Shown in pieces: positions 10,939-35,076 of a stretch of DNA of 64,000 nt. The notes under the pieces are model-generated. The model made no database searches. It was not told the DNA's origin and saw only the letters and a program-made list of their open reading frames with translations. The stretch is from an uncultured Candidatus Izemoplasmatales bacterium (lineage in GTDB: Bacteria > Bacillota_I > Bacilli_A > Izemoplasmatales > Izemoplasmataceae). How positions within the stretch are numbered: position 1 is the stretch's first letter; the number at the start of each line of letters is the position of its first letter. The stretch lies in the NCBI GenBank assembly GCA_964643385.1, contig CAZXSS010000001.1, positions 5,283 to 69,282 of the forward strand, given 5' to 3'. The position numbers and the translations under genes are program-made.

Positions 10939-10950
10939 GATAATCACTCC

Positions 10951-21153: not shown

Positions 21154-21180
21154 AAAAACGTTCAGAAGAACGTTTTATAA
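21152..21180. terminator. Bidirectional terminator (yigZ / 74-aa ORF)
   Basis: aaaacgttc-agaa-gaacgtttt hairpin. U7 on the minus strand, weaker UUUUAUAAA on the plus strand. Confidence 0.7.
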
Positions 21181-21399
21181 ACCCGCAATTAGTGTGGTCA
21201 ATTCTATTAAGCGCATGAGACCTCTTGTGACCAAATAGGCAAGCCCAATACTTAAGAAAATATAGATGATTTGAATTTGCCAAATGGCGCCTTTTTTAAA
21301 GATGCTGCTAATATCTGCAGCCATCATGGCTTTAAACGTCAAGGGAAAGATAATAAAAAATAAAATTAGTTCGGTAATGGCGCTTTGTAAAGGATCCAT
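21175..21399 (-). CDS. Small two-TM membrane protein, function unknown
   Basis: 74 aa with two hydrophobic helices. Very strong RBS AAGGAGGG, 5 nt before ATG 21399, embedded in the 3' end of the upstream gene (34-nt overlap). Confidence 0.55.
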   Translation of the reverse strand: MDPLQSAITELILFFIIFPLTFKAMMAADISSIFKKGAIWQIQIIYIFLSIGLAYLVTRGLMRLIELTTLIAGL

Positions 21400-21866
21400 G
21401 GGTCCCTCCTTTTAATATAGGCATCATCTTCTGTATCTGAACTGACTATTTGAATCGAAATACGGTTTGGTAAACAGGTGATGGGTTGGACTGGCGAGTT
21501 GGTTGGACCATGCAAACGACAGGTGTTATTTGGGCTGGTTTCGTAGATGACATCGACCATATGATTGTTATATTTGATGACGACAGGTCCGTTTTCTCCT
21601 AAGACGCAAGTGATGTTGTTTTCATTAAAACATTGGATATAATAAGGATTGTCTTCTGTTTCATCTGGTCTATAGATATAGGTTTCATCAATAATGGTAT
21701 ATGACCCATCTGTTAAACTAATATGTAAAATTTCTTGATTTTCATAAGTGACAACGGCCGTGGCATTTTCATCTGTTAATGTTGATTGTAATATTTGGAC
21801 AACGGCGTATCCAATGATTCCAACAACAAGCACAATAAATATTAACCATTTATCATTTTTTTTCAT
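21366..21866 (-). CDS. NusG domain II-containing membrane-anchored protein
   Basis: ATG 21866 (MKKNDKW), one N-terminal TM, then a beta-rich domain ending in TCRLHGP...PITCLPNRISIQI, like the C..C..CLP(N/H)K signature of the NusG_II family. Confidence 0.65.
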   Translation of the reverse strand: MKKNDKWLIFIVLVVGIIGYAVVQILQSTLTDENATAVVTYENQEILHISLTDGSYTIIDETYIYRPDETEDNPYYIQCFNENNITCVLGENGPVVIKYNNHMVDVIYETSPNNTCRLHGPTNSPVQPITCLPNRISIQIVSSDTEDDAYIKRRDPWILYKAPLPN

Positions 21867-21990
21867 GTATATCAACTCCGTATTTGCTAGATATATTATA
21901 CCATACATTTGTTCAATTATACCATTAATCTAAGGTTGTTTGTATACAAATCTATAAACGAAAAAAAAGCGGTTTTATTTGTATTGGTAG

Positions 21991-22057: not shown

Positions 22058-22543
22058 ATGAAAAAATTATTAGCTTTATTAGTATCATTAGCATTTGTCT
22101 TTGCCCTTACAGCTTGTGGCGAAGAAGTTGAAGAAGGAGATTTCACCCCTGGCGTTCATACGGGTTATTCAATTGGGACCGACAATGGTACTGGAAAATC
22201 GGTAGCTACAACTGCTACACTGTTTGTTAACGAAAATGGTGTTATTGATTATGCATTTATTGATGTAGTTTACCCAAGCGGTGATGAAACAGATGGTTAT
22301 ACTTATACTACTAAACATGCCTTAGAAGATGACTATGGTATGAAAGGTGCAAGTCCAATTGGTCTTGAATGGTATGAACAATCACTTGCATTAGGTGAAG
22401 CTATTGTTGAAGAACAAGGTTGGCCTGGTGATATCGAAGATGGATACTTCGCTGAAGATGAAGATGTATTTGCAAGCGTAACAATCCGCGTTACTTCATA
22501 CAAAGCTGCATTTGACGATGCAATGGAACAAGCGACTGAGTAA
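22058..22543 (+). CDS. FMN-binding-domain lipoprotein (PplA/RnfG-like, extracytosolic)
   Basis: Signal peptide with lipobox LTAC (Cys20). TKHALEDDYGMK...EWYEQ...DVFASVTIRVTS resembles FMN_bind domains (D-x-x-[S/T]-G-A-T region). Strongly acidic. Confidence 0.65.
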   Translation: MKKLLALLVSLAFVFALTACGEEVEEGDFTPGVHTGYSIGTDNGTGKSVATTATLFVNENGVIDYAFIDVVYPSGDETDGYTYTTKHALEDDYGMKGASPIGLEWYEQSLALGEAIVEEQGWPGDIEDGYFAEDEDVFASVTIRVTSYKAAFDDAMEQATE

Positions 22544-22580: not shown

Positions 22581-22616
22581 AAAAAGACACATTATTAACT
22601 TAATGTGTCTTTTTTA
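22581..22616. terminator. Bidirectional terminator (FMN lipoprotein / RnfD-like)
   Basis: aaaagacacatta / taatgtgtctttt, 13-bp stem followed by T-run on the plus strand; A-run upstream serves the minus strand. Confidence 0.85.
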
Positions 22617-22634: not shown

Positions 22635-23621
22635 CTATATACTCAACAACATAATAATACCAAGCCAAACCACACCACTTGCTATAGTTAAAGCGTTTCT
22701 AACGCGCGGAAAGGTCCGGGTTTGAAATTGCTCCATGACCCAGGTAATGAATTGGGCAAAGACAAGCGCGTAAATGGCTGCTTCAATAATGTCAAATTGT
22801 AATCGAAACCATATAGTTAAAATAACGGCTATTAATGGATAGATAATCATCATTTCATCGGTTTCTGGGGTTGATGTTGGTTCTGAGACAAAGAAGACCA
22901 GCATTAATGCGGTATAGCCTAACATGAGATAGGTGAATGTATTCCACAAGGTGTATTCTGTGAATATCGCAAAGACGATTACGCCGATAATCATATGAAT
23001 CACGTATAGTACGCTCATTTTTACATGGATGATTTTTGTTACTGATAAATAAATCCACAACATGAATAATATAAAGAATGCACTGGTTCCTAGCGTTAAT
23101 CCTTCATATAGCCCAAAGAAAAATTGAATGCGGCTAAATGGAAGATCATCAGCGTTAAATATCGCGACCATGGTTTCTGATATAGATAACATATCTCTAA
23201 AAATAAGTTGGACAATAAGTACAGCAAGTAAGACGGGATGGATAATGTGTTTCCTAAATAATATGAGAAATATAAAAGAAAATAACTTAATGATGATTAT
23301 TGTAATAATAATCACATAAAATGGTGCTTGAACGGGTAATAAAAGGCTTGCGAGCAATGCGTGTGTAATGCTTGTCATGTAGTTTCTATAGTGTGTTGTA
23401 TCTTGGTTTTTTAGATATCGGTAAACAAATACTAAAGCGCTTGAGAAGGCGACCGCAATTACTACTTGTAATAAGCCATAGAAGGCATATTCTAATCCAA
23501 TGAATGCTTGTAATATTAAGGCGATAACGGTCATAAATACGACGGCAATGTGATAACTTATGAGACGTTTCAAAGTATGTTCAACGGTACTTACGAGTGG
23601 TGTTTTTTGGATTTTAAACAT
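22635..23621 (-). CDS. RnfD/NqrB-like polytopic membrane protein (divergent)
   Basis: 328 aa, about 9-10 TM. ITHALLASLLLPVQAPFYV, GLTLGTSAFFILFMLWIYL and FFVSEPTSTPET align by eye with RnfD blocks (ITALLLAL.LPP, G.SLGETSAL, FFMATDPVTSP). Confidence 0.6.
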   Translation of the reverse strand: MFKIQKTPLVSTVEHTLKRLISYHIAVVFMTVIALILQAFIGLEYAFYGLLQVVIAVAFSSALVFVYRYLKNQDTTHYRNYMTSITHALLASLLLPVQAPFYVIIITIIIIKLFSFIFLILFRKHIIHPVLLAVLIVQLIFRDMLSISETMVAIFNADDLPFSRIQFFFGLYEGLTLGTSAFFILFMLWIYLSVTKIIHVKMSVLYVIHMIIGVIVFAIFTEYTLWNTFTYLMLGYTALMLVFFVSEPTSTPETDEMMIIYPLIAVILTIWFRLQFDIIEAAIYALVFAQFITWVMEQFQTRTFPRVRNALTIASGVVWLGIIMLLSI

Positions 23622-24753
23622 CGTTATCCCCCTTAAGTAATGCTTTGGCTTTTTTTACAAAATTCATTACGGGGATTTTCGATGGGCAATAATAGGTACA
23701 TAAGCCGCATTCAATACAAAGATTGGTTTTCATACTGCCCAAATAAATATCGTGTTCAACCGCATGCATAATCTTTGATGGCAATATTCCAGCGGGACAT
23801 TTATTATTACAGCGACCACATGAAATACAATCATAAACTTCGCGTTCTCTATGTTCTTGGATATAAAGTCCAACGATGGTTTTTGTAATTGAGAATTGGT
23901 CATGGTCGATGGCTTTCATTTCTAAACGTGAATTTTTAAGAATAGTGAGCGGTTTATTGGTTGTGTACCCATTAAAAATACGTTTTAAATCGGAAAATAG
24001 CGTACCGATTCTGACTTGGAAGACAGTGGGATTTTTTATCGCATCACCATGGACAATAACCCGGTTTAATACCGATGGGCGTTTGTATGTAATCATTTCG
24101 TTGAGTCTTAATATCGATTCAAACGATAGATAGTTATATGTTTGTGTTTTTCTTAATGTTCCGTTGAAGATATCATTGATGGCTTTGTGTCTAAAATCGA
24201 CACCTTTTTCTGGCTTGATTGATCTGACTTCAATGGGAAATGTTTGATTGTTTAAAAAGCGCGATGAGACATCGTCTTTAACGAGTAATACGACCGATTT
24301 AAATTGATATATATCATGTAATGTTTGTATGGTTCTCATGATGATATCATAGGTATTTTCGACAAATTTTTGGTCGAGTGTCGCAAAGGGCTCATCAAAA
24401 AATACAAGATCAACAACAAGGTATTTTTGGTGCATTGAGCCTAATTGCTCAATTGCCAAAGATGGAGAAAAATATGTTTCAATGCGTTTTTTTGTGGTCA
24501 TATTTTGGATGGCTTTGTCCACGGTGTTTTTGGTATCGTTTTCGATAATTACGTAGTTTTTAATGTCGTTATACTCATCTTTTTGAACAATAAATTGTTT
24601 GATAGTGCCACTCACTGTGCTATATACAAGGCCCGCTTCATCAAGCGGTGTGCCAATATTAACAGGGGTATTTAGTGTTAATGAAGGTTTGATTGAATCA
24701 ACAGGTAAGGCAATCAATTTTGGTTGAATATAGCTTTTTTCAGTAGATATCAT
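23614..24753 (-). CDS. RnfC-like iron-sulfur protein (short, nucleotide-binding motifs degenerate)
   Basis: C-terminal CISCGRCNNKCPAGILP and CIECGLCTYYCPSKIPV match the RnfC 2x[4Fe-4S] region. N-terminal barrel motif VYSTVSGTI. 8-nt overlap with the RnfD-like gene. Confidence 0.65.
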   Translation of the reverse strand: MISTEKSYIQPKLIALPVDSIKPSLTLNTPVNIGTPLDEAGLVYSTVSGTIKQFIVQKDEYNDIKNYVIIENDTKNTVDKAIQNMTTKKRIETYFSPSLAIEQLGSMHQKYLVVDLVFFDEPFATLDQKFVENTYDIIMRTIQTLHDIYQFKSVVLLVKDDVSSRFLNNQTFPIEVRSIKPEKGVDFRHKAINDIFNGTLRKTQTYNYLSFESILRLNEMITYKRPSVLNRVIVHGDAIKNPTVFQVRIGTLFSDLKRIFNGYTTNKPLTILKNSRLEMKAIDHDQFSITKTIVGLYIQEHREREVYDCISCGRCNNKCPAGILPSKIMHAVEHDIYLGSMKTNLCIECGLCTYYCPSKIPVMNFVKKAKALLKGDNDV

Positions 24754-24869
24754 TATCCCACCCCTTTTATTATTTTTCTTTATTATAACACGCGTTTATA
24801 TTTTTTTGATAATAGACATCGAAATTAATGAAATTATGATATAATATGTTAGACGAAAGGGGTTTTGCA

Positions 24870-25925
24870 ATGAAAATATTTAACTTTATAACGCTCTTAT
24901 TTATAGGGTTTCTATTGATTAGCTGCGATACTGGTAAAGAAGAACATCAAGAAATCTATTATGGTGTTTTTGATACAAGAATTGCCGTTACTACGTGGCT
25001 CGATAATCAAGATGAAAATGCCCTTTTTGATGAGATAGATGATATTTTAACACATGGCCATCAAGTCTCGACACGATATACAGACTATGAAGATATTCAT
25101 AATATTCATTACATTAATGCACATCCTGACGAAGTCATTGAGATTGACCCGTTACTAACTGAAATGATTGCGCTCAGTATTGATATACACGAGAATGTCT
25201 CGCCGTTATTTAATATAGCCCTTGGTGATGTGGTAGATATTTGGACCAATTATCGCGAGCAATGTCTATCAGATGAGGTTTGTGAGGTTCCATCTCAAGA
25301 TGAGCTCGAAGAAGCAGCAATGATGGCTGATCCTTCGCTGATTGAACTTGATGAAGATAACAATACAATTAAGATTCCCGAAGGTATGACCCTTGATCTA
25401 GGTGCGATTGCTAAAGGATATATTGCTGAAAAAGTTGGCGATTATCTTCGTTCTCAAGATGTAGAAATTTTTATGATAAACTCTGGTAGTTCAAACATTG
25501 AAGTTGAGGGAGCCAATCCGCATCCTGAAAGAGATTATTGGTCAATTGGTTTAAAAGATCCTGATAATCCACTTTCTAGATATGGACGTGTTCGCGTCCC
25601 TTCTGGTTATAGTGCGGTGACTAGTGGAGACTATGAACGGTTTTATACGGTTGATGGGCAGCAATATCACCATTTAATTAGTCCAATAACCTTATACCCT
25701 ACCTATCACACACGTACAGTAACGGTTATTTCTAAAGATCCTGGACTAGCAGATGTGTATTCTACCATTGCGTTTTTAATGCCTATTGATGAATCTATTG
25801 ATTTTATCAACAGCCTTGAAGATACTGAAGCGATTTGGCTAGATACAGATCGTGAAGCGCGCTTTAGTGAGAATTTTGAAGAAAATTATCTTATGGAAAT
25901 TTTGATTGAACAATATACAGACTAA
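24870..25925 (+). CDS. apbE: ApbE-family FAD:protein FMN transferase lipoprotein (FmnB-like)
   Basis: ATG 24870 with lipobox LLISC (Cys19). DLGAIAKGY and TSGDYERFY...YHHLISP ApbE motifs. Confidence 0.88.
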   Translation: MKIFNFITLLFIGFLLISCDTGKEEHQEIYYGVFDTRIAVTTWLDNQDENALFDEIDDILTHGHQVSTRYTDYEDIHNIHYINAHPDEVIEIDPLLTEMIALSIDIHENVSPLFNIALGDVVDIWTNYREQCLSDEVCEVPSQDELEEAAMMADPSLIELDEDNNTIKIPEGMTLDLGAIAKGYIAEKVGDYLRSQDVEIFMINSGSSNIEVEGANPHPERDYWSIGLKDPDNPLSRYGRVRVPSGYSAVTSGDYERFYTVDGQQYHHLISPITLYPTYHTRTVTVISKDPGLADVYSTIAFLMPIDESIDFINSLEDTEAIWLDTDREARFSENFEENYLMEILIEQYTD

Positions 25926-25967: not shown

Positions 25968-26510
25968 TTATGTATGATTTTCAGTTAATGGTTTTAATAT
26001 GTGTAAAAGTTGTATTGTTAGTTTTCCTACAATGAATCCTGATGGCAAACTGAGTAGCAACATTAATGGAAAGTAAGCAGCGATGTAATAATCAAAAAAG
26101 AGTATCGCAACAATCATTTGACCAAACACATGTCCAACTGCGCCAAGGATACTTACGCCAATAATTGAAAAGCTATTAAATGATTTTGCTAAAACCATGA
26201 TTGAGTACGCCAATAACCCACCAACGAGGCTTGTATAAAAGGGGATACTAGATAGTCCTGAATACAGTAACCCGACAAGTAATACTCTTAGTAATAAAAC
26301 AGTAAGGCTATCTTTTCTTCCGTAAGTATATAAAATTAATAATACAATGATATTTGCGAGTCCAATGCGCAATCCACCAACCCCTAATAAGGGCGCTAGA
26401 AACGGTCCGGCAAGGGCGGTAATGCCTTGCATAACAACCCGTTCAACAATGTTCAATACAACACTGAGGGCAAGCAACACGGAAAGCAATGTTAAGCGTT
26501 TTGTCTTCAT
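25968..26510 (-). CDS. Gx transporter family protein (Hpre_diP_synt_I-type membrane protein)
   Basis: 180 aa, 5 TM. LRIGLANIIVL and GAVGHVFGQMIVA resemble the KLGLANI / HN.GQL family motifs. Confidence 0.7.
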   Translation of the reverse strand: MKTKRLTLLSVLLALSVVLNIVERVVMQGITALAGPFLAPLLGVGGLRIGLANIIVLLILYTYGRKDSLTVLLLRVLLVGLLYSGLSSIPFYTSLVGGLLAYSIMVLAKSFNSFSIIGVSILGAVGHVFGQMIVAILFFDYYIAAYFPLMLLLSLPSGFIVGKLTIQLLHILKPLTENHT

Positions 26511-26570: not shown

Positions 26571-28187
26571 TTATGTTTTTTTCTGGTTTTTTAAAAACGT
26601 ATAAAATTCGTTAAATTGTAGCGGTTTGGCATAATGATATCCTTGTGCATAATCGCAGTCGATTGATTTTAAATAGTCAGCTTCTTCTTTTGTTTCAACG
26701 CCTTCGGCGGTTGTTTTTACATTCAAGGACTTACCTAAATTAATTGCTGCTTTGGTGATGCTACAAAGTTGTGTGTCTTTTGTACAATTGTGAATAAATG
26801 AACGGTCAATTTTTAAAGAATGTACTTGATATCTATTTAGTTCACTTAAGGATGAATATCCAGTACCAAAATCATCTATTGATAAACTGATTTTTTCATG
26901 TTTTAATTGATCGATAAATTTTTTAGAAATACTTTTATTAATGATAAGGGATTGTTCGGTGATTTCAAATTCTACATATTTTCCGGGAATTTGATAGTCT
27001 TCTAACCATGTCTTAACGTTGTTGTAAAATGTTTTATCAAGCAGATTTTTTGCGGATATATTTATTGCTATTTTGAGTGGCATCCGGCTTTGCATCAACA
27101 TCTTAATACGTTCAAACACGCTTTTGATAACCCACTCTGTTAAATCATTGATGAGCGATGTATTTTCAATAAGAGGGATGAAATCATTAGGCATCATTAA
27201 ACCTAAGTCATCACTTTGCCAGCGCAACAAGGCTTCTGCCCCAATAGTCTCTTTTGTTTTTAAATCAATTTGTGGCTGGAATACTAAATATAATTCATTG
27301 TTATAGATTGCTTTATTAAATAAGCCTAAGATATTAATATTTTCGTGATTTGGGCTCATAGTATCGGTGTATTTTGCATAACTTACATAATTGCGTTCTG
27401 CATACCGAGAAGCGTACATAGCTTTAATTAAGGCTGTTTGTAAATCATCATTTGCCATGGTAATACCTAATGCTATATCGAGATAAATAGGAATATCTTT
27501 TATAATAAAGGTTTCCCTTAGGGTATCACTTAAATGCTCTAAGGTATTATCATCGACTTCATTTTCAAGTGTGATGATAAAACTTGATAATTCTTTTTGA
27601 TAGATACTGCTTGTATGTTTTAAGTTAATTATGCGTGATTGCATGAGTTGTAAAACATCATGATAGGCATCAATACCGAGTAAATCGATTAAATCTTGAT
27701 GATTCAAGATTTTTAAATGCATAATATAATGTGGGTGTTGATCAGCATCTTGATCAATTAAATCGGTTAATAAAGGGATATCTGTATAAATATCTTTTTT
27801 TAATATTTTAATACGTTCTAAATACGCTGTTTTTATAGCTTTTGAGAAATAGCCAATGGTTCCCCCAATAAGCATAAAGAAAATAATACGGTAAATCCAG
27901 TTGATAGGAGATTGCATAAGCATTGCATCGGTATCAATAGGCATAAATGGACCAAGTAGTAAGCCACCGATTAAGCCTTGAATTAGCCCACCGTAAACAC
28001 CAAAATAGATACCTGCTAAAAGAATCGGTATATACATTCCATGTGAATACACATATTGAATGCCTCCTGTAAGATATACCAATAGTGTAATTAGTATTGT
28101 AAGGATTATGAGACCAATTGCGAGAAATTTTTGAACTGATTTTTTAGGAGTCATAAATAATGTAATCCACCCATTTAATTTTTTCAT
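26571..28187 (-). CDS. Membrane-bound c-di-GMP phosphodiesterase (degenerate GGDEF + EAL)
   Basis: Four N-terminal TM. Central GGDEF-like fold with KELSSF in place of GGDEF. EAL domain with EALLRW, FIPLIENT, NISAKN, EFEITE, DDFGTGYSS, KIDRSF, AEGVET and QGYHYAKP. Confidence 0.85.
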   Translation of the reverse strand: MKKLNGWITLFMTPKKSVQKFLAIGLIILTILITLLVYLTGGIQYVYSHGMYIPILLAGIYFGVYGGLIQGLIGGLLLGPFMPIDTDAMLMQSPINWIYRIIFFMLIGGTIGYFSKAIKTAYLERIKILKKDIYTDIPLLTDLIDQDADQHPHYIMHLKILNHQDLIDLLGIDAYHDVLQLMQSRIINLKHTSSIYQKELSSFIITLENEVDDNTLEHLSDTLRETFIIKDIPIYLDIALGITMANDDLQTALIKAMYASRYAERNYVSYAKYTDTMSPNHENINILGLFNKAIYNNELYLVFQPQIDLKTKETIGAEALLRWQSDDLGLMMPNDFIPLIENTSLINDLTEWVIKSVFERIKMLMQSRMPLKIAINISAKNLLDKTFYNNVKTWLEDYQIPGKYVEFEITEQSLIINKSISKKFIDQLKHEKISLSIDDFGTGYSSLSELNRYQVHSLKIDRSFIHNCTKDTQLCSITKAAINLGKSLNVKTTAEGVETKEEADYLKSIDCDYAQGYHYAKPLQFNEFYTFLKNQKKT

Positions 28188-28251
28188 AATATACTCCTTT
28201 ATGTGTCCTACCCTTATCTTTACTATAGCACAAACAAATGTCTAGAACTAA

Positions 28252-28285
28252 CAAAAAGAAAGAACCTGCAATTTAGCAGGTTCTT
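28252..28285 (-). terminator. Rho-independent terminator after the padR-degV operon
   Basis: agaacctgc / gcaggttct stem followed by UUCUUUUUG on the minus strand. Confidence 0.8.
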
Positions 28286-28286
28286 A

Positions 28287-29156
28287 TCAGTCAATATTAT
28301 CAAGATTAAAATACGCAATGCCAACTGTGCCAACACCAGTATGACACCCAATGACTGGGGTTATTGGTGCGGCATAAAAACGGTTATTAGGATAGGCTTT
28401 ATCAATCCGGGATTTGACATAATCAAACCCAGCTTTATTGTCGCTTGTATCGTAGGTTATTACGAAGTTTTTAATGTCTTTTAAATCCTCTAAAACGTGA
28501 TCTACCATGCGTTCAAGGGCTTTTTTTTGTGTGCGCACTTTTTCAAAAGGCACGATTTTTCCTTCGTCATTTACTTCTAATATTGGTTTGATTTTAAGAA
28601 GACTCCCTAAGAATCCACTGGCGCCACTAAGTCGGCCATTTTTTACAAGTAAGCGTAAATTATCGACCATAAAATATTGTTTGCGACTAGTAGATAATTT
28701 TTCTAATGTTTTGATAATGGTATCAAGGGGTTTGCCTTCCTCAATCATACGCAACGCTTCTAATGATAAGAATCCTTCACTAATTGCGGCGTTTTTTGTA
28801 TTAATAACGTGTATGTTTAAGGGTTTATCATAGGCGTTTTTCGCCATGAGCGCTGTTTGATAGGTGCCGCTTAAGGCACTAGAAATGGTAATAACTAAGA
28901 CATTATCATAGCCATCTTCTAAGATTTGATCAAACGTTTCTGTTATTTCTCCAAGACTTGGCATGCTTGATGATGGCATCAGTGAGGTATCATTGTTTAG
29001 CATCTCATAAAATCGTTCAGCGGTGATGTCTATATAATCATTATATGTTTCATCATTAATGAGTATCTTACAGCGAACAATGTATAGGTTATCATAAGGA
29101 ACGTCTAAATAATCTAAGCATCCTGTACTTACAGCAATAACAGCAGTCTTCTTCAT
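28287..29156 (-). CDS. DegV family fatty-acid-binding protein (FakB-like), copy 1
   Basis: 289 aa with typical DegV blocks (ISSALSGTYQ, LVKNGRLSGASGFLGSLLKIKP, HTGVGTVG). Confidence 0.9.
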   Translation of the reverse strand: MKKTAVIAVSTGCLDYLDVPYDNLYIVRCKILINDETYNDYIDITAERFYEMLNNDTSLMPSSSMPSLGEITETFDQILEDGYDNVLVITISSALSGTYQTALMAKNAYDKPLNIHVINTKNAAISEGFLSLEALRMIEEGKPLDTIIKTLEKLSTSRKQYFMVDNLRLLVKNGRLSGASGFLGSLLKIKPILEVNDEGKIVPFEKVRTQKKALERMVDHVLEDLKDIKNFVITYDTSDNKAGFDYVKSRIDKAYPNNRFYAAPITPVIGCHTGVGTVGIAYFNLDNID

Positions 29157-29158
29157 TA

Positions 29159-29584
29159 TTAATCTCCTTTTTTATTGAGCAGTTTGTAGAGTAAACTTAA
29201 CGGCCAAAATAAAATACCTAGTGATGGAATAATAAACCATAGTCCTGCATCTGGAAAGTATTCAAGATTAACAAAGCCTAAAATACCGATGATAATTGCT
29301 GAACTGATAGCTGAAAATAACAAATCGTTACGATAATGTTGAATGGTTTTTTGTCGTTTATACCGTTTCTTCTCTTTATCCATGTTGGGATGATAAAAGT
29401 CATCGAGTTCACCAAACTCATTTATGGTTTTGTCGATGGCCTCTTCTTCTTCATATCCTTGTTCTTTTAAGTCTTCAACTTTTTCTGTCAGCATCTCAAT
29501 TAAAATTTGTTTTGTTTCCTCTGTTTCTTTGGTTCGCTTTTGTTTTTTAAACAGATGGTGAATAAAATCGTCAATTGCTTTCAT
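29159..29584 (-). CDS. PadR-associated membrane protein (helical N-domain + 2 TM)
   Basis: 141 aa. Charged N-terminal helices (EEEAIDKTINEFGELDDF), then two TM. 14-nt overlap with padR, an arrangement typical of PadR partner proteins. Confidence 0.55.
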   Translation of the reverse strand: MKAIDDFIHHLFKKQKRTKETEETKQILIEMLTEKVEDLKEQGYEEEEAIDKTINEFGELDDFYHPNMDKEKKRYKRQKTIQHYRNDLLFSAISSAIIIGILGFVNLEYFPDAGLWFIIPSLGILFWPLSLLYKLLNKKGD

Positions 29585-29912
29585 GTTGTGCCTCCAGAAG
29601 TTGTGACATGATTGCTTTAAGGTGATGCCATTCGTTTACTTTTTCTTTAAAAAAGGCTTTTCCTAACGTTGTAATTGTGTAGTACCGGCGTTTACCGCCA
29701 TGTGATTTTGTTCCAATATATGAGGTTATTAGTTCTTTTTTTTCTAAGCGTTGAACCAAACTATATAACGTTGCTTCTTTGATGATGAATGCATCGTTGG
29801 TTCGTTTCGCGATTTCGCTAGCAATTTCATACCCGTACCGATCTTTTTCGATAATGAGTTTTAAAATGATACCTTCTAGATGCCCGCGAATAATATCCGA
29901 ACTGATTTGCAT
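29571..29912 (-). CDS. PadR family transcriptional regulator
   Basis: ATG 29912 after RBS GGAGGTG. Winged-helix motif YGYEIASEI...EATLYSLVQRLEKKELI...GGKRRYYTIT. Confidence 0.88.
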   Translation of the reverse strand: MQISSDIIRGHLEGIILKLIIEKDRYGYEIASEIAKRTNDAFIIKEATLYSLVQRLEKKELITSYIGTKSHGGKRRYYTITTLGKAFFKEKVNEWHHLKAIMSQLLEAQHESN

Positions 29913-29947
29913 ATAAAAACACCTCCACACAAGATCATGTTTAATTC

Positions 29948-29976
29948 ATTTTATCAAATTAACCATGGTGTGTAAA
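29948..29976 (-). promoter_or_regulatory. Candidate promoter of the padR operon
   Basis: Minus strand reads TTTACA-17 nt-TAAAAT. The palindrome ACCATGGT lies in the spacer and is a possible operator. Confidence 0.45.
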
Positions 29977-29988
29977 GGCGTTTATCGC

Positions 29989-30429
29989 TTAGTATTTGCT
30001 TTTGAAGTAGATTGAGAGTTTTTCTAATGCGTCAATGAGAACGGTATTTTCTTCAAGATGCATGTCTTCGACAACCGCGTCAATCATTTCATCATGAAAC
30101 GCTTCGTGAATACGTAAGACTTCTTCCCCTTTATCGGTAAGTGTAATTACAACTTTGCGACGATCATCTTTGACACCACCGCGCTTACAATAGCCTTTTT
30201 GAACAAGTCTATTGACGCTTGTTGTAAGTGTTCCAACCGTAACGCGTAAGCGTTTTGCGATGTTACTCATTGTCGGTTCTTTGGTTTTTTCAATGGCTTC
30301 TAATACATGAACTTCACTCATTGATAGTTTAACACCGCGTTCTTTTAGGTTTTGTTGCTCTATGGTTAAAATACGGTTAAACACTTCAACAAGGAGTTCG
30401 TTAATGATTGCCTTTGGTGTAGAATCCAT
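29989..30429 (-). CDS. MarR family transcriptional regulator
   Basis: 146 aa; wHTH region MSNIAKRLRVTVGTLTTSVNRLVQKGY...DRRKVVITLT. Confidence 0.88.
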   Translation of the reverse strand: MDSTPKAIINELLVEVFNRILTIEQQNLKERGVKLSMSEVHVLEAIEKTKEPTMSNIAKRLRVTVGTLTTSVNRLVQKGYCKRGGVKDDRRKVVITLTDKGEEVLRIHEAFHDEMIDAVVEDMHLEENTVLIDALEKLSIYFKSKY

Positions 30430-30441
30430 AGCTTCCTCCCT

Positions 30442-31299
30442 TTAAATCTTTTTCGGTACCCAGCCTAATGCCACAGTCTTAGGTCCAGCATGTGCGCCGA
30501 CAACTGGTGTAAGTGGCGTGATAAGAACATCGCCTAGTTCTGGTTTTTGATTCAGTAGGTCTTGTTTGATGGCTTGGGCGGTTTCTTCATCATTTGCATG
30601 TGCAATGAAGACGTCTTGATTACTATTGTAATCTTCTTTTAAATATTTTTCAACAATTCGTTTAATTGCTTTTGAGCGGGTTCTGATTTTTTCTAAAGGC
30701 TCAACGCGTCCTTCTCTTGTTAAATGTAGCATCGGTTTGATTTTTAAGAGACTTCCTAAGAATCCACTCGCACCACTAAGACGCCCATTTTTAACTAAAT
30801 ATTTTAGTGTATCTACAGAAATAAGAATACCTTGGTGTTCGCGGATAACAATAAGTTTATCTAAGATTTCTGTCATTTGTTTGCCTTCTTCAATCATCTT
30901 TGCGGCGGTTAAAGCCATGTATGCTTCAGGGTAAGCAACTGTCAATGAATCAAAGACGCGTACTTTGATGCCTTCAACCATGTTGGCGGCCATACGTGCG
31001 CCTTCAAAAGTTCCACTTAATTTTGATGAAATGGTGATGGTTAAAATTTCATCATATCCATCTTTTTTTAATTGTTCATAGGTTTCTAAAATTACACCTG
31101 TTGCGGTTTGTGCTGTTGAAATGTGTAAATCACTGCTAGCTTCAAGTTTTTTGTAAAAATCATCGGCTTTAATATCAACAAAGTCAGTAAATTCTTCATC
31201 ACCAAATAATAACATTGAGCGAATGACACGAATATCATATGGATGATCCATATAATCGATACCTGAGTTCCCACATACTACGAGTCCAATTTTTGCCAT
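30442..31299 (-). CDS. DegV family fatty-acid-binding protein (FakB-like), copy 2
   Basis: ATG 31299 (MAKIGLVV) after RBS GGAGG; the track ATG 31311 lies inside the RBS. Same conserved blocks as copy 1. Confidence 0.9.
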   Translation of the reverse strand: MAKIGLVVCGNSGIDYMDHPYDIRVIRSMLLFGDEEFTDFVDIKADDFYKKLEASSDLHISTAQTATGVILETYEQLKKDGYDEILTITISSKLSGTFEGARMAANMVEGIKVRVFDSLTVAYPEAYMALTAAKMIEEGKQMTEILDKLIVIREHQGILISVDTLKYLVKNGRLSGASGFLGSLLKIKPMLHLTREGRVEPLEKIRTRSKAIKRIVEKYLKEDYNSNQDVFIAHANDEETAQAIKQDLLNQKPELGDVLITPLTPVVGAHAGPKTVALGWVPKKI

Positions 31300-31343
31300 A
31301 AAATCCTCCATTTGTTTTGAATATCAAATTATTCTTATATCAA

Positions 31344-31372
31344 AGTTTATCTTATTTTGAAGGGTTTGTCAA
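31344..31372 (-). promoter_or_regulatory. Candidate promoter of the degV-marR operon
   Basis: Minus strand reads TTGACA-17 nt-TAAACT. The 5' UTR carries a TTGATAT direct repeat and the small palindrome TTGAtatTCAA (31317-31327), a possible MarR operator. Confidence 0.45.
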
Positions 31373-31416
31373 TCAAAAAACGACTCTATCTAGGAAATGA
31401 TAGATAGAGTGCGTTT
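31373..31416 (-). terminator. Rho-independent terminator after nfnB
   Basis: actctatcta / tagatagagt, 10-bp stem extended by a bulged GC pair, followed by U6 on the minus strand. Confidence 0.8.
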
Positions 31417-31423
31417 TATTCAC

Positions 31424-32809
31424 TTATTTGGTTTCATTTTCAAGGTATTCATGCATATGATGCGCGGCATCTTTCCCAGCACCCATAGCGAGAATAACTG
31501 TCGCTGCGCCGGTGACAACATCGCCACCCGCAAATACACCATCAATACTTGTCATCTGATAGTCATCGGTAATAATACCGCCCCATGGTTCTGTTTCTAA
31601 TCCGAGGGTGTTGTCTTTAAGAATTGGGTTTGGCTTTTGCCCGATGGAAATAATGATGTTGTCGATATCGTGGGTGAGGTATTCGCCTGTTGGTAAAGGA
31701 CGGCGTCTTCCTGAGGTGTCAGGTTCTCCAAGTTTCATTTTTTCAACTTTAACCTGTTTTACCACGCGGTTATCACCGATGAGTTCTACAGGATTTTGTA
31801 AGAGTCTAAAATCAATACCTTCTTGTTCAGCGTGATGGATTTCTTCTACCCGTGCAGGTAAACTAGATCTATCTCGACGGTAAAGGATAAAGACTTCTTT
31901 GGCACCTAAGCGTTTGGCAGTACGGGCTGCATCCATGGCAACATTACCGCCACCAACAACGGCAATTTTATCACCGAGTTTAATTGGTGTTGAGGTACTT
32001 TCTTTATGGGTTCTGGCTTTCATTAAGTTAACTCTAGTTAAAAATTCATTGGCATAATAAACGCCGTTTAAATTTTCACCAGGAATCCCTAAACTACTTG
32101 GAAGGCCAGCTCCGCTTCCGATAAAAATGGCTTTAAATCCATCTTCTTTTAGTTGATTGATGGTAAGACTTTTACCGATGACGGCGTTTTTAATAAAGGT
32201 TACGCCCATGGCTTTTAAATTATTCACTTCGTGTTTAACGATTGATTTTGGTAATCGGAATTCAGGAATGCCGTATTGAAGCACGCCACCAAATTCATGG
32301 AGCGCTTCAAATACCGTGACATCATAGCCTTTCATTCTTAGGCTAGCGGCATTGGCAAGCCCAGCTGGGCCAGAACCAACCACAGCAACTTTTGTATTTT
32401 TAGTTGTTTCAATGGTTTGATTGGCAAGGTTATGCTCAATACCATAGTCACCAACATACCGTTCGAGTGCACCAATTGAGACGCTTTCTCCTTTTATATT
32501 TAGGATACATGCGCCTTCACACTGACTTTCTTGTGGGCACACTCTACCGCAAATTGACGGTAGAATGTTATCTTGGTAAAGGGTATTAAACGCGTCTTCT
32601 GGATCATCATTAACCAATGCTTTAATGAATCCAGGAATATCTACCTTAACGGGACAGGCTTTGATACAGCGCGGGTTTTTACAATCTATACATCTTAACG
32701 CTTCTTGTTTTGCTTGCGCTTTAGTATACCCTAAAGCGACTTCTAAAAAATTTGATTGACGGATTGACGGATCTTGTTCTGGCATGCGTGTACGTGGGAT
32801 TTTATTCAT
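31424..32809 (-). CDS. nfnB: NfnB-type NADPH-dependent oxidoreductase (GltD / glutamate synthase small-chain family; 2x[4Fe-4S] + FAD)
   Basis: 461 aa. N-terminal Cys clusters (CIDCKNPRCIKACP, CGRVCPQESQCEGAC), GSGPAGL and VVGGGNVAMD dinucleotide folds. 8-nt overlap with the NfnA-like gene. Confidence 0.75.
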   Translation of the reverse strand: MNKIPRTRMPEQDPSIRQSNFLEVALGYTKAQAKQEALRCIDCKNPRCIKACPVKVDIPGFIKALVNDDPEDAFNTLYQDNILPSICGRVCPQESQCEGACILNIKGESVSIGALERYVGDYGIEHNLANQTIETTKNTKVAVVGSGPAGLANAASLRMKGYDVTVFEALHEFGGVLQYGIPEFRLPKSIVKHEVNNLKAMGVTFIKNAVIGKSLTINQLKEDGFKAIFIGSGAGLPSSLGIPGENLNGVYYANEFLTRVNLMKARTHKESTSTPIKLGDKIAVVGGGNVAMDAARTAKRLGAKEVFILYRRDRSSLPARVEEIHHAEQEGIDFRLLQNPVELIGDNRVVKQVKVEKMKLGEPDTSGRRRPLPTGEYLTHDIDNIIISIGQKPNPILKDNTLGLETEPWGGIITDDYQMTSIDGVFAGGDVVTGAATVILAMGAGKDAAHHMHEYLENETK

Positions 32810-33623
32810 GTTTTAACCTCATATAACAGTCATGTTCTTCTTTTTTATAATAAGATTGGCGAGACATAAGTTCATCAAAGTCGACATTTTCTCCAGGAAA
32901 ATCTGGACCGTCAATACATGCAAAGAAGGTTTTTCCGTCAATCGTAACACGACAATTACCGCACATGCCTGTCCCATCAATCATAATTGGATTTAAAGAA
33001 ACATCGACAGAACGATTGTGTTCTTTAGCCATCATGGCAGTAAATTTCATCATAATAACGGGGCCAATGGCAATCACATGATCGATAGAATCATCATGTT
33101 CTAATAATGGTTTTAAGGTATCGGTAACTAGTCCTTTATCGCCTAAAGATCCATCATCAGTGGTAATATATACGTGGTCGCATATTTTTTCATACGCATC
33201 TTTTAAGATAATGTATTCTTTACTCCGCGCTCCTAAAATAACGGAAGTTTTAATGCCTTTTTCATGATAGGCTTTCATTTGGGGTAATAATGGGGCGCTT
33301 CCAACACCACCAGCAACACCAATAACATGGTTTTTATCTTCTCTTATGTGTGCCGCTTTACCCAATGGTCCAACAAAGTCTACCACTGTGTCACCTGCGA
33401 CTTTTTTGCCAAGTAATTTTGTGGAGTAGCCCATTTTTTGATAAATAATCGTAACGAGGTTGCCTTCTACACCAGCAATCGTTAAAGGAATACGTTCCCC
33501 ATCCTCTTCTACGCGTAAAATAATAAAGTGTCCGGGTTCTGCATTTCGAGCCACCAAGGGCGCATCAATAACCATAACATCAATGTCTTTGTTAATGACG
33601 TGTTTCTCTACTATTGTGTACAT
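32802..33623 (-). CDS. nfnA: NfnA-type FAD/[2Fe-2S] subunit (sulfide/dihydroorotate dehydrogenase-like electron-transfer subunit)
   Basis: 273 aa. FNR-like fold (GHFIILRV...RIPLTIAG, GVAGGVGSAP) and C-terminal 2Fe-2S motif DGTGMCGNCRV...FACIDGPDF. Confidence 0.75.
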   Translation of the reverse strand: MYTIVEKHVINKDIDVMVIDAPLVARNAEPGHFIILRVEEDGERIPLTIAGVEGNLVTIIYQKMGYSTKLLGKKVAGDTVVDFVGPLGKAAHIREDKNHVIGVAGGVGSAPLLPQMKAYHEKGIKTSVILGARSKEYIILKDAYEKICDHVYITTDDGSLGDKGLVTDTLKPLLEHDDSIDHVIAIGPVIMMKFTAMMAKEHNRSVDVSLNPIMIDGTGMCGNCRVTIDGKTFFACIDGPDFPGENVDFDELMSRQSYYKKEEHDCYMRLKHE

Positions 33624-33686
33624 GTTTACACCTCTTTTTTGTCAAAATAAAAACGCTTTCTTTTTTGCACTCATTCCTATTATAAC

Positions 33687-33716
33687 AAAAAAATCCGTTC
33701 ATGCACGGACTTTTTT
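33687..33716. terminator. Weak bidirectional hairpin terminator after the smr operon
   Basis: tccgt-tcatgc-acgga (only 5 bp), flanked by A7 upstream and T6 downstream. Confidence 0.45.
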
Positions 33717-33735
33717 GTTTAAGTACTATTGGGGG

Positions 33736-33975
33736 TTAATTCGTAAAAAGTTCTAAAATCGTTTCACCTTGATTCATGCTGTATTTACGGCGTTTTATCC
33801 GGTTACTTCTTAGTTCATTTGGGTTTTGTATCATCGTTTTAATTGCATCACCTCGGCTGTAGCCGTGAATAACAATAATTTCATGACACTCTTTTGGGGC
33901 ACTTGCAATGAACCGTTCGAGTATTTTTTTAGCATCTAATACCGTGTAGCCATGTAAATCGATTTCTAGTGTCAT
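33736..33975 (-). CDS. Stand-alone Smr (small MutS-related) domain protein
   Basis: 79 aa with LEIDLHGYTVLDAKKIL...IIVIHGYSRGDA, typical of the Smr fold. 4-nt overlap with the upstream gene. Confidence 0.75.
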   Translation of the reverse strand: MTLEIDLHGYTVLDAKKILERFIASAPKECHEIIVIHGYSRGDAIKTMIQNPNELRSNRIKRRKYSMNQGETILELFTN

Positions 33976-35066: not shown

Positions 35067-35076
35067 GCTACCACCT

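What the first reader, a model, noticed from the sequence alone, without database searches (positions are those of the whole stretch)
22635..24753. Orphan RnfC/RnfD-like pair with degenerate cofactor motifs and no RnfA/B/E/G partners
The two overlapping genes (8-nt overlap) align by eye with RnfC and RnfD block by block, but key motifs differ.

**RnfC-like (379 aa, shorter than typical RnfC)**
- It keeps both ferredoxin motifs (C309-C319, C346-C356) and the N-terminal barrel.
- The NADH/FMN-site strings GxGGAGFPT and NGAECEP are replaced by EQLGSMHQK (aa 102-110) and VDLVFFDEPF (aa 114-123).

**RnfD-like**
- It keeps the LPxxAP, G.(S/T)LG(E/T)S and FF(M/V)(A/S)(T/E)(D/P) blocks.
- It has no canonical [S/T]GA[S/T] flavinylation site; the closest string is SISET, aa 146-150.
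- The GGLG.NPFNPA loop is degenerate.

No RnfA, RnfE, RnfB or RnfG genes are in the window. This looks like a repurposed two-subunit module: Fe-S input, no NADH site, possibly no covalent FMN. It does not look like a classical ion-pumping Rnf or a decaying pseudogene, because both ORFs are intact and have good RBSs.
Basis: seen in the sequence. Interest (0 to 1): 0.65.

Follow-up and report, generated by a model that had tools for sequence, protein, structure and literature searches.

The report
Cut-down Rnf pair: RnfC/RnfD only
Two overlapping, well-conserved genes are what is left of a six-subunit Rnf membrane redox complex in a wall-less marine-sediment-type bacterium, and with their flavin-handling neighbours they probably carry electrons across the membrane to a surface flavoprotein instead of pumping ions.

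Summary
Window 23614-24753(-) and 22635-23621(-) encode divergent RnfC and RnfD homologues that overlap by 8 nt. Eight Fe-S cysteines are kept. The RnfC NADH/FMN glycine loop and the RnfD [S/T]GA[S/T] flavinylation motif are gone. No RnfA/B/E/G is in the 64 kb.

New points:
- **Origin.** The pair is the positional orthologue of a hydA-rnfCDGEAB cluster in Izimaplasma HR1. That complete cluster already lacks both motifs, so the degeneracy predates the reduction.
- **Selection.** dN/dS is 0.03 and 0.05, so neither gene is decaying.
- **RnfD sites.** The Thr that carries FMN and both riboflavin-contact positions are invariant in the family.
- **Neighbours.** The pair sits with ApbE (flavin transferase), an EetB homologue (FAD exporter) and a surface lipoprotein. 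The lipoprotein domain matches PDB 2kzx (E 4e-9), and its DVFASVT aligns to that protein's DAISGAT. Relatives carry TGAT, or six AGVT repeats.

Best reading: an Rnf-derived half-circuit that wires cytoplasmic Fe-S clusters to extracytosolic flavoproteins. It is not an ion pump. I rate it a new variant of the known partial NQR/RNF-like and flavin-based electron-export systems. The donor, the direction of flow, any covalent flavin, and whether rnfAEGB exist elsewhere in the genome are untested.

The parts
23614..24753 (-). rnfC-like gene (379 aa). Cytoplasmic subunit with an N-terminal barrel, a degenerate Rossmann-like domain without the FMN/NADH glycine loop, an SLBB-like region, and two [4Fe-4S] motifs (C309-C319, C346-C356).
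   Evidence: TIGR01945 gives 107.6 bits, below cutoff. Family profile against 7zc6_C gives E 1.3e-45 over the full length. The 8 Cys are invariant. dN/dS is 0.031.
22635..23621 (-). rnfD-like gene (328 aa). Polytopic membrane subunit that overlaps rnfC-like by 8 nt. T150, H128 and E247 occupy the positions of A. woodii RnfD T156 (FMN link) and N123/D249 (riboflavin contacts).
   Evidence: PF03116 gives 59.9 bits. HMMER alignment to 9eri_D. Family invariants (that alignment's numbering is 1 lower). AF2 plus Foldseek place RnfD first, TM 0.64. dN/dS is 0.045.
24754..24845 (.). Divergent intergenic region between rnfC-like and apbE. It holds promoter-like hexamers on both strands and the rnfC-like ribosome-binding site (AAAGGGGTGGG, 24767-24757 on the minus strand).
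22581..22614 (-). Terminator-like hairpin (14-bp stem followed by a T run) that closes the two-gene operon. It lies between the convergent rnfD-like and lipoprotein genes.
24846..25925 (+). ApbE-family FAD:protein FMN transferase with a lipoprotein signal (LLISC), transcribed divergently from rnfC-like. It is adjacent to the pair in every related locus.
   Evidence: PF02424 gives 188 bits. Synteny. dN/dS is 0.088.
25968..26510 (-). EetB homologue (PF07456, ECF-S-like). In Listeria, EetB is the substrate-binding subunit of the FAD exporter that supplies ApbE.
   Evidence: PF07456 gives 93.9 bits. Function of the family from PMC9973259. dN/dS is 0.045.
22058..22543 (+). Surface lipoprotein (161 aa, lipobox LTAC) with one divergent FMN_bind-type domain. 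Its acceptor-site motif is DVFASVT, where relatives have D.VAGVT or D.VTGAT.
   Evidence: Domain profile against PDB 2kzx_A gives E 4e-9, with the motif aligned to DAISGAT. Sub-threshold FMN_bind hits in three relatives. TGAT forms in L001/L002/L009/L010. A six-repeat form in L014. It is the only match to the relaxed motif in the window.
21175..21908 (-). NusG_II-domain membrane protein (21366-21908) and a DUF1146 small membrane protein (21175-21399). They are conserved neighbours of both the reduced and the complete Rnf loci. Their role is unknown and their membership of the system is uncertain.
   Evidence: PF07009 gives 48.4 bits. TIGR02327 is weak. Synteny.

Best explanation
**What it is.** The pair is the surviving RnfC-RnfD half of an ancestral hydrogenase-linked rnfCDGEAB operon of Izemoplasmatales. 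The two hydrogenase genes upstream and rnfG, rnfE, rnfA and rnfB downstream were lost.

**How it probably works (inferred).**
- In canonical Rnf, electrons cross the membrane twice. One crossing runs through RnfB-RnfA/E-RnfG and is coupled to Na+. The return crossing runs through RnfD flavins to the two RnfC [4Fe-4S] clusters.
- Only the second crossing is kept here.
- The RnfC-like subunit docks on the conserved N- and C-terminal tails of RnfD-like. It takes electrons at its two [4Fe-4S] clusters from a low-potential cytoplasmic donor, most likely reduced ferredoxin from the PFOR encoded in the window. It cannot use NADH.
- The electrons pass through the riboflavin-site and FMN-site positions of RnfD-like to the outer face.
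- There they reach flavinylated surface lipoproteins made by the adjacent ApbE, using FAD exported via the EetB homologue, and then go on to an unknown extracellular or surface acceptor.
- The module would be a non-pumping electron outlet. It is analogous to the NQR/RNF-like two-subunit systems and to Listeria flavin-based extracellular electron transfer.

**Status of the steps.** Shown: homology, cofactor-ligand conservation, loss of partners, synteny, purifying selection. Inferred: complex formation, donor, direction of flow, flavin occupancy, acceptor.
For: **Origin**
- Izimaplasma HR1 (CP009415) has, between ApbE and NusG_II-DUF1146-Impact-CCA-PulA-HD, the genes for a 117-aa NuoF-C-like 4Fe-4S protein, HydA, and RnfC, D, G, E, A and a short B. 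L020 and L017 show the same cluster.
- The window has the same flanks but only C and D.
- In a presence/absence matrix over 21 loci, every reduced locus lacks 4Fe4S, HydA and RnfG/E/A/B.

**The pair is functional**
- dN/dS is 0.031 and 0.045, with dS saturated.
- The 8 Cys are invariant down to 26% identity.
- A 4- or 8-nt C/D overlap is kept in all loci.
- The RnfD-like N-terminal tail (TPLVST.EN..KR.ISYH) and the EQFQ.R C-terminal tail are conserved. In A. woodii these tails bind RnfC (PMC11889175).

**The C-D half is a transmembrane wire**
- The cofactor order is FMN(G), FMN(D), riboflavin(D), then the RnfC clusters, and the Na+ path is in RnfA/E.
- T150, H128 and E247 align to T156, N123 and D249 and are invariant.

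**No NADH site.**

**Flavinylation context**
- ApbE is always adjacent, and insertions occur only outside the ApbE|C|D trio.
- PF07456 is the EetB FAD exporter family and commonly colocalises with apbE and Rnf.
- The lipoprotein domain is homologous to 2kzx with a canonical SGAT at the aligned site. Relatives carry TGAT or six AGVT repeats.
- An A-to-V change in the motif still allows about 50% flavinylation in a model substrate (PMC12052999).

**Donor.** PFOR is at 6365-9916.
Against: - No biochemical data exist for any member.
- The window's own lipoprotein has the most degenerate acceptor motif (ASVT, three departures from [ST]GA[ST]). Two related loci (L011, L016) have no lipoprotein gene at this position, so the partner is not obligatorily encoded in cis.
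- The loop around T150 is 5 residues shorter than in canonical RnfD and is modelled with low confidence (pLDDT <50 for residues 147-174). Flavin binding there is unproven.
- The whole region is collinear among these genomes, so adjacency to EetB, NusG_II and DUF1146 is weak evidence of shared function.
- How a cytoplasmic donor would reach the RnfC-like clusters without the FMN domain is unknown.
- A second rnf operon elsewhere in the genome is not excluded.
Confidence: 0.5

Rival explanations
1. The pair is an alternative C-D module that assembles in trans with RnfA, E, G and B from a second, complete rnf operon elsewhere in the genome. The result would still be an ion-translocating complex, but with a different cytoplasmic partner than NAD+.
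For: Izimaplasma HR1, HR2 and ZiA1 are reported to have two Rnf complexes (PMC6256511). The RnfD fold is retained. Only 64 kb of this genome is visible.
Against: - A second operon would bring its own RnfC and RnfD.
- The pair occupies the locus where the complete operon sits in relatives, so its own partners were deleted.
- RnfD-like has diverged far from both canonical and HR1-type RnfD: TIGR01946 gives 20 bits against 126 bits for HR1 RnfD, and the GGLG.N loop is lost.
- None of the 11 distinct reduced loci has A/E/G/B within the flanks obtained, about 2-9 kb on each side.
Confidence: 0.15
2. The wire is the same but runs inward. The module takes electrons from an extracellular or surface donor, via flavinylated lipoproteins, into the cytoplasm to reduce a cytoplasmic Fe-S acceptor.
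For: The Rnf C-D branch is reversible in canonical complexes. Nothing in the sequence fixes the direction.
Against: - A fermenter with PFOR and NfnAB-like genes more plausibly needs an outlet for reducing equivalents, especially after losing the locus-linked hydrogenase.
- Without the Na+-coupled branch there is no evident driving force for uphill reduction of low-potential clusters.
Confidence: 0.12
3. The RnfD-like protein has been recruited for a non-redox membrane role, for example flavin or small-solute handling. The RnfD/NqrB fold is distantly related to urea and ammonium channels. RnfC-like would act as an Fe-S-containing regulatory or stabilising subunit.
For: Foldseek also returns urea transporter and Amt/Rh channels at TM about 0.4. 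The neighbours EetB and ApbE concern flavin trafficking.
Against: - All eight cluster ligands of RnfC-like and the three flavin-site positions of RnfD-like are invariant over deep divergence. That is what an electron-transfer chain predicts.
- The channel hits are far weaker than the RnfD/NqrB hits.
Confidence: 0.08
4. The two genes are decaying leftovers of the deleted operon and have no function.
For: They score far below the curated cutoffs for rnfC and rnfD, and cofactor motifs are lost.
Against: - dN/dS is 0.03-0.05, as low as neighbouring housekeeping genes.
- The ORFs are intact and overlapping in 11 distinct loci spanning 21-89% identity.
- The motif losses are shared with complete operons.
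Confidence: 0.02

Closest known systems
Canonical Rnf complex (RnfABCDGE; structures 9eri A. woodii, 7zc6 C. tetanomorphum, 8ahx A. vinelandii)
   Same: RnfC-like aligns over its full length to RnfC, with both [4Fe-4S] sites. RnfD-like has the RnfD fold, and the FMN-Thr and riboflavin-contact positions are conserved. Gene order is C then D, with translational overlap.
   Different: - There is no RnfA/E (the Na+ path and its [2Fe-2S] cluster), no RnfG and no RnfB.
- RnfC lacks the FMN/NADH glycine loop.
- RnfD lacks the D..[ST]GA[ST] ApbE motif and the GGLG.N loop.
- Both score below the NCBIfam cutoffs.
- It therefore cannot be a ferredoxin:NAD+ ion pump.
Izimaplasma HR1-type hydA-rnfCDGEAB cluster (CP009415, L021; also L017, L019, L020)
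   Same: It occupies the same chromosomal position and has the same flanks. It is the closest sequence relative of both proteins (27-29% identity; RnfD profile E 4e-31). It shows the same loss of the RnfC glycine loop and of the canonical RnfD motif.
   Different: HR1 keeps a [FeFe] hydrogenase, a 117-aa 4Fe-4S protein, a 669-aa RnfG, RnfE, RnfA and a 103-aa RnfB. The window has none of these.
NQR/RNF-like two-subunit systems (Meheust et al. 2021, PMC8238504; Huang et al. 2024, PMC11334425)
   Same: It is a partial Rnf/Nqr system with a single transmembrane path. The RnfD/NqrB-like subunit lacks the flavinylation motif, pairs with an extracytosolic FMN_bind-type protein, and colocalises with ApbE. 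Unidirectional export of electrons was proposed for it.
   Different: There the cytoplasmic input is an NqrF-type NAD-binding domain (PF00175) fused to the membrane domain. Here it is a separate RnfC-like Fe-S subunit with no nucleotide site. The taxa differ (Actinobacteria and CPR there, Izemoplasmatales here). The published operational definitions (RnfB for RNF, a PF00175 fusion for NQR/RNF-like) would not capture this cluster.
Listeria flavin-based extracellular electron transfer (Ndh2, EetA, EetB, FmnA, FmnB/ApbE, PplA)
   Same: An EetB homologue, an extracytosolic ApbE and an FMN_bind-type surface lipoprotein are encoded together.
   Different: The membrane electron step in Listeria uses Ndh2 and a demethylmenaquinone pool. 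Here it would be an Rnf-derived Fe-S/flavin wire. No Ndh2, EetA or FmnA was identified next to the pair.
Stand-alone RnfC homologues (PrdC of proline reductase, PduS cobalamin reductase; from general knowledge, with TIGR04481 seen as a weak hit for HR1 RnfC)
   Same: These are RnfC-type Fe-S proteins that work outside a six-subunit Rnf complex.
   Different: They keep the flavin/NADH domain and have no RnfD partner. The window protein lacks that site and is translationally coupled to RnfD-like.

Membership tests
Canonical Rnf complex (ferredoxin:NAD+ oxidoreductase, ion-translocating) | Six subunits including RnfA and RnfE (membrane [2Fe-2S] cluster and ion path), RnfG and RnfB, normally in one operon | tested here: not met
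   tblastn with RnfG/E/A/B from the nearest complete operons finds nothing in 64 kb. They are absent from all reduced-type loci. The rest of the genome was not visible.
Canonical Rnf complex (ferredoxin:NAD+ oxidoreductase, ion-translocating) | RnfC FMN/NADH site (G.GGA.FP glycine loop and N.AECEP) | tested here: not met
   Profile and pairwise alignments to 7zc6_C and 9eri_C place YFSPSLAIEQL and VDLVFFDEPF at these sites. Complex1_51K gives only E 0.073.
Canonical Rnf complex (ferredoxin:NAD+ oxidoreductase, ion-translocating) | RnfC C-terminal two [4Fe-4S] clusters | tested here: met
   Two CxxCxxCxxxCP motifs, all 8 Cys invariant.
Canonical Rnf complex (ferredoxin:NAD+ oxidoreductase, ion-translocating) | RnfD covalent FMN on the Thr of D..[ST]GA[ST] | tested here: inconclusive
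   The motif is absent, but the invariant T150 aligns with FMN-linked T156 of A. woodii RnfD. Flavinylation itself cannot be tested with these tools.
Canonical Rnf complex (ferredoxin:NAD+ oxidoreductase, ion-translocating) | Scores above the curated family cutoffs (TIGR01945 rnfC 245.95; TIGR01946 rnfD 207.05) | tested here: not met
   107.6 and 20.1 bits.
NQR2_RnfD_RnfE superfamily (PF03116) / RnfD fold | Pfam gathering score and the RnfD/NqrB fold | tested here: met
   59.9 bits against 27.7. Foldseek top hits are 9eri_D, 8rbq_D, 7zc6_D and then NqrB, with TM 0.58-0.64.
NQR/RNF-like two-subunit system (Meheust 2021) | NqrB/RnfD-like membrane domain fused to an NqrF-type NAD-binding domain (PF00175) | tested here: not met
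   RnfD-like is 328 aa with PF03116 only. The cytoplasmic partner is a separate RnfC-like protein.
NQR/RNF-like two-subunit system (Meheust 2021) | Membrane subunit without the flavinylation motif, plus an extracytosolic FMN_bind partner and ApbE nearby | tested here: inconclusive
   The motif is absent and ApbE is adjacent. The partner lipoprotein is homologous to an SGAT-bearing domain (2kzx, E 4e-9), but it is below the Pfam FMN_bind cutoff and carries ASVT.
Listeria-type flavin-based extracellular electron transfer | EetB (PF07456) together with an extracytosolic ApbE/FmnB | tested here: met
   PF07456 gives 93.9 bits and PF02424 gives 188 bits with a lipobox. Family role from PMC9973259.
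Listeria-type flavin-based extracellular electron transfer | Ndh2, EetA, FmnA and quinone biosynthesis (DmkA/B) as the membrane electron step | not tested
   None was seen among the roughly 35 window ORFs scanned, but the window was not scanned exhaustively for them.

The most novel reading that the evidence does not exclude
RnfC plus RnfD alone form a self-sufficient, non-pumping transmembrane electron wire: [4Fe-4S] x2, then riboflavin, then FMN. In wall-less Izemoplasmatales this wire replaced a hydrogenase-coupled Rnf as the outlet for ferredoxin-level electrons. It feeds a new class of surface (multi-)flavoproteins whose acceptor motif is D..AGVT instead of D..[ST]GA[ST]. That would make it a natural 'half-Rnf', showing that the two arms of the Rnf U-shaped pathway are separable modules.
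Probability: 0.35. Interest if true: 0.7.

Novelty: new variant of a known kind. Interest (0 to 1): 0.55.

Why it matters
- **A natural test of the Rnf model.** Structural work splits Rnf and Nqr into a Na+-coupled arm (RnfB-A/E-G) and a return arm (RnfD-C). A lineage that keeps only the return arm, under strong selection and next to the flavinylation machinery, tests whether that arm works alone as a membrane electron conduit.
- **A wider catalogue.** It adds an Fe-S-input, ferredoxin-level version to the flavin-based extracytosolic electron-transfer systems, beyond the NAD(P)H-input NQR/RNF-like type.
- **A variant ApbE motif.** It points to a variant ApbE acceptor motif (AGVT) that motif-based surveys would miss.
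- **An annotation correction.** Genome papers on Izemoplasmatales count such loci as 'Rnf complexes' and infer ion pumping. For this subtype that inference is probably wrong.
- **Limits on impact.** The family is confined to one order (8 of 185,579 GTDB species representatives), and everything functional is inferred.

Tried and rejected
- **AF2 of RnfC-like.** The single-sequence run gave pLDDT 31 and was discarded.
- **hhalign of the lipoprotein domain.** Comparison with two ad hoc FMN_bind alignments gave only a 25-27-column motif-local match (probability 2-4%, P about 0.01-0.02), which is not convincing alone. A profile search of PDB sequences settled the homology instead.
- **Second homologue search.** The search with the mixed alignment A3 hit the candidate cap and did not return the distant members. 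Their contexts were obtained through cluster members.
- **Literature.** Nothing specific turned up on this subtype. The Liberiplasma search gave only a validation list. The Izemoplasma isolate paper just lists 'RNF complex', and its supplement has no Rnf entries. Skennerton 2016 is not held. The Rnf/Nqr review does not mention partial or Mollicutes systems.
- **Pseudogene reading.** Rejected on dN/dS and conservation.
- **Motif loss as a signature of repurposing.** Rejected because complete operons share the losses.
- **PrdC/PduS-type stand-alone RnfC.** Rejected because the flavin/NADH domain is degenerate and an RnfD partner is coupled.
Full report
**1. The observation**

The window is low-GC (about 36%). 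The closest relatives of its proteins are from Izemoplasmatales and Acholeplasmatales-type MAGs and from the isolate Liberiplasma polymorphum.

Two ORFs on the minus strand, 23614-24753 (379 aa) and 22635-23621 (328 aa), overlap by 8 nt.

- The first matches TIGR01945 rnfC at 107.6 bits (E 5.5e-31), far below the curated cutoff of 245.95. It carries two 4Fe-4S motifs. Complex1_51K reaches only E 0.073.
- The second passes PF03116 (59.9 bits against 27.7) but scores only 20.1 bits on TIGR01946 rnfD.
- A strong ribosome-binding site precedes the first gene, and a 14-bp-stem terminator follows the second. The pair is therefore a self-contained bicistronic operon.

**2. The motifs**

*RnfC-like.* A profile of ten RnfC-like sequences aligns over its full length with the RnfC structures: 7zc6_C at E 1.3e-45, and also 9eri_C and 8ahx_C.

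- The canonical IVGMGGATFPTHVKL is replaced by a glycine-free segment, window KRIETYFSPSLAIEQL.
- NAAECEPYLTCD is replaced by VDLVFFDEPFATLD.
The first is shifted by a few residues, and the conclusion does not change.
- All eight cluster cysteines are invariant.

*RnfD-like.* The HMMER alignment to A. woodii RnfD (9eri_D) can be read against the structural paper (PMC11889175).

- Window T150 sits at the position of T156, the Thr that carries covalent FMN.
- H128 sits at N123 and E247 at D249, the two residues that hydrogen-bond riboflavin.
- All three are invariant in 16 family members (that alignment omits the first Met, so its numbers are one lower).
- The ApbE recognition motif D..[ST]GA[ST] is absent, and the loop is five residues shorter.
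- An AF2 model built with the family alignment (pLDDT 70.5) finds RnfD chains first (TM 0.64) and then NqrB. The T150 loop is low-confidence.

So loss of the motif is real. Loss of the flavin is not demonstrated.

**3. No partners at the locus**

tblastn with RnfG, RnfE, RnfA, RnfB, HydA and the small 4Fe-4S protein from the nearest complete operons finds nothing in the 64 kb. RnfE in this lineage is 64-91% identical between genomes, so a copy would not have been missed.

**4. Where the pair comes from**

The family is narrow.

- There are 17 clusters in the 5.8-billion-protein index.
- There are 8 loci among 185,579 GTDB species representatives.
- In an exhaustive profile search only 5 representatives score below 1e-30 and 443 below 1e-3.

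Its deepest members (35% and 21% identity) still show ApbE divergent from RnfC-like, followed by RnfD-like, with NusG_II and DUF1146 further on. Insertions (a PNT transhydrogenase, a nucleoside phosphorylase) occur only outside the ApbE|C|D trio.

The next-nearest RnfD relatives (E 4e-31 and weaker) lie in complete operons. RnfE from these operons is from Izimaplasma itself. The complete genome of Izimaplasma HR1 shows the key picture. Between ApbE and NusG_II-DUF1146-Impact-CCA-PulA-HD, exactly the flanks of the window pair, lie:

- two lipoprotein genes;
- a 117-aa NuoF-C-terminal-like 4Fe-4S protein;
- a [FeFe] hydrogenase;
- RnfC (406 aa), RnfD (367 aa), RnfG (669 aa), RnfE, RnfA and a 103-aa RnfB.

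L020 and L017 are the same. HR1 RnfC and RnfD hit the window pair at 29% and 28% identity, and the flanking ApbE and NusG_II at 36% and 41%. A presence/absence matrix over 21 loci separates the two types cleanly. Reduced-type loci have C and D only. Full-type loci have the 4Fe-4S protein, HydA and C-D-G-E-A-B, as far as each contig reaches.

The window pair is therefore the remnant of a hydrogenase-linked rnf operon.

The full-type RnfC already lacks the glycine loop (SVNQISVDGLYTDVDF in place of GIVGMGGATFPTHVKL). The full-type RnfD already has VEGTPL or VGDTPL in place of T[TG]ATPL. Both score below the NCBIfam cutoffs (206 and 126 bits). The 'degenerate motifs' thus predate the reduction.

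**5. Is it alive?**

Against the 88%-identical relative L006, dN/dS is 0.031 for RnfC-like and 0.045 for RnfD-like. dS is saturated (1.6-2.3), so these are upper-range estimates. They are as low as the neighbouring HD (0.039) and CCA (0.060) genes.

Several features are kept across the family:

- intact ORFs;
- a 4- or 8-nt overlap between the two genes;
- all cluster ligands;
- highly conserved N- and C-terminal tails of RnfD-like. In A. woodii these tails insert into RnfC.

Decay is excluded.

**6.

- **ApbE.** Window 24846-25925 encodes an ApbE lipoprotein (188 bits).
- **EetB homologue.** Window 25968-26510 belongs to PF07456. In Listeria this family is EetB, the substrate-binding subunit of the FAD exporter that feeds ApbE. 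It colocalises with apbE in 2,169 genomes, most often with Rnf and EET systems (PMC9973259).
- **Lipoprotein.** Window 22058-22543 encodes a 161-aa lipoprotein with no Pfam hit.
  - Its domain recurs at the same position in relatives in several forms: short forms with D.VAGVT; longer forms with a canonical D.VTGAT (L001, L002, L009, L010); a rhodanese fusion in HR1 (DGLAGVS); a tandem pair in L020; and six repeats, each DD.[VI]AGVTIN, in a 998-aa protein in L014.
  - Three relatives give sub-threshold FMN_bind hits (E 0.002-0.01).
  - A profile of nine domains hits PDB 2kzx_A at E 4e-9 over 126 columns. The family's DvvAgVT aligns to that protein's DAISGAT, a canonical flavinylation motif.
  - The relaxed motif D..[STA][GS][AV][ST] occurs once among all window ORFs of 80 aa or more, in this lipoprotein.
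  - In a model substrate, A-to-V and G-to-A substitutions still allow about 50% flavinylation (PMC12052999).

The locus therefore encodes FAD export, a flavin transferase, a likely flavin-acceptor surface protein, and the RnfC/D pair.

**7. Mechanism**

In Rnf the electron path is U-shaped. It runs from ferredoxin to RnfB, to the RnfA/E [2Fe-2S] cluster (coupled to Na+), and to FMN on RnfG outside. It returns via FMN and riboflavin in RnfD to the two RnfC clusters and the RnfC FMN, and ends at NAD+.

Removing A/E/G/B and the RnfC flavin site leaves a linear wire from cytoplasmic [4Fe-4S] clusters to the outer-face flavin pocket of RnfD. I infer that the pair works as such a wire.

- It would take electrons from a low-potential cytoplasmic donor. 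The window encodes PFOR, hence reduced ferredoxin, and an NfnAB-like pair.
- It would deliver them to flavinylated surface lipoproteins, without ion pumping.
- This is the logic proposed for the NQR/RNF-like systems, where an RnfD-like domain without a flavinylation site receives the covalently bound flavin of its extracytosolic partner. The input module is different here.
- Loss of the locus-linked hydrogenase in the same lineage fits a switch of electron outlet. That is speculation.

I give the origin and 'functional but not a pump' parts about 0.85 confidence. The specific outward-wire mechanism gets about 0.45, and the whole statement 0.5.

**8. Rivals**

- Assembly in trans with A/E/G/B from a second operon: 0.15. 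Izimaplasma genomes are said to hold two Rnf complexes.
- The same wire running inward: 0.12.
- A non-redox role for the RnfD fold: 0.08.
- Decay: 0.02.

**9. Comparison and novelty**

It is not a member of canonical Rnf, since four defining features were tested and not met. It is not a member of the published NQR/RNF-like class either, since it has no PF00175 fusion.

The operational definitions of the large flavinylation survey (RnfB for RNF, the fusion for NQR/RNF-like) would leave this cluster unclassified. The genome papers I could read simply count 'Rnf complexes'.

I rate it a new variant of a known kind. Interest is moderate (0.55). It offers a natural dissection of the Rnf pathway and a possible new ApbE acceptor motif, but it is confined to one order and is wholly inferential.

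Noticed in passing
L021 3592-11568 (Izimaplasma HR1, CP009415); also L020 2740-10576 and L017 4157-11444: The complete relatives form a hydrogenase-Rnf cluster. It comprises a 117-aa NuoF-C-terminal-like 4Fe-4S protein, a CpI-type [FeFe] hydrogenase, an RnfC without the NADH/FMN loop, an RnfD without the canonical flavinylation motif, an oversized RnfG (602-788 aa), and an RnfB cut down to its first Fe-S domain (103 aa). This looks like an Rnf whose cytoplasmic end is wired to a hydrogenase instead of NAD+. That would be an ion-coupled ferredoxin:H+ oxidoreductase, functionally like Ech.
   Followed up: partly
L014 9029-12025(-) and L015 6669-9227(-): These are 998-aa and 852-aa lipoproteins with six and five tandem ~145-aa domains. 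Each domain ends in DD.[VI]AGVTIN[VI]D[GA]Y and is homologous to the window's 161-aa lipoprotein. They may be multi-flavinylated surface proteins with a non-canonical ApbE acceptor motif (AGVT instead of [ST]GA[ST]).
   Followed up: partly
L018 8001-9065: A solitary RnfD-like gene (P0178, 354 aa; cluster of 15 members on contigs up to 254 kb) has no [ST]GA[ST] motif and no Rnf, ApbE or FMN_bind gene within 8 kb. It is another, different kind of orphan RnfD.
   Followed up: no
proteins P0029, P0031, P0039, P0069 and many others: Many of the weaker hits to the RnfD-like profile are 450-870-aa proteins. In those scanned, an RnfD domain is fused to one to four FMN_bind domains, for example P0069 with four DGIDT[AS]TGAT sites.
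   Followed up: partly
window 33972-35994(-): A 364-aa protein with a 4Fe-4S dicluster domain lies next to a D-2-hydroxyacid dehydrogenase, just downstream of an NfnAB-like pair (31424-33623). The same Fer4 and dehydrogenase pairing recurs in L016. It may be a ferredoxin-linked lactate or hydroxyacid redox module.
   Followed up: no
window 26571-28187(-): An EAL-domain protein (538 aa) is inserted between the eetB homologue and the DegV gene in the window and in L006 only. Other relatives have nothing there, or have a PNT transhydrogenase (L014, L015) or a nucleoside phosphorylase (L016) between eetB and apbE.
   Followed up: no
window 1-12000 and 28000-34000: GC skew is negative at 1-10 kb, positive from about 10 kb to 28 kb, negative again at 28-34 kb, and positive after that. 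Most genes throughout are on the minus strand, so the switches are not explained by coding strand.
   Followed up: no
window 11875-14433(+): An 852-aa ORF with no Pfam hit is conserved at the edge of the syntenic block in relatives (837-843 aa in L001, L004 and L021).
   Followed up: no
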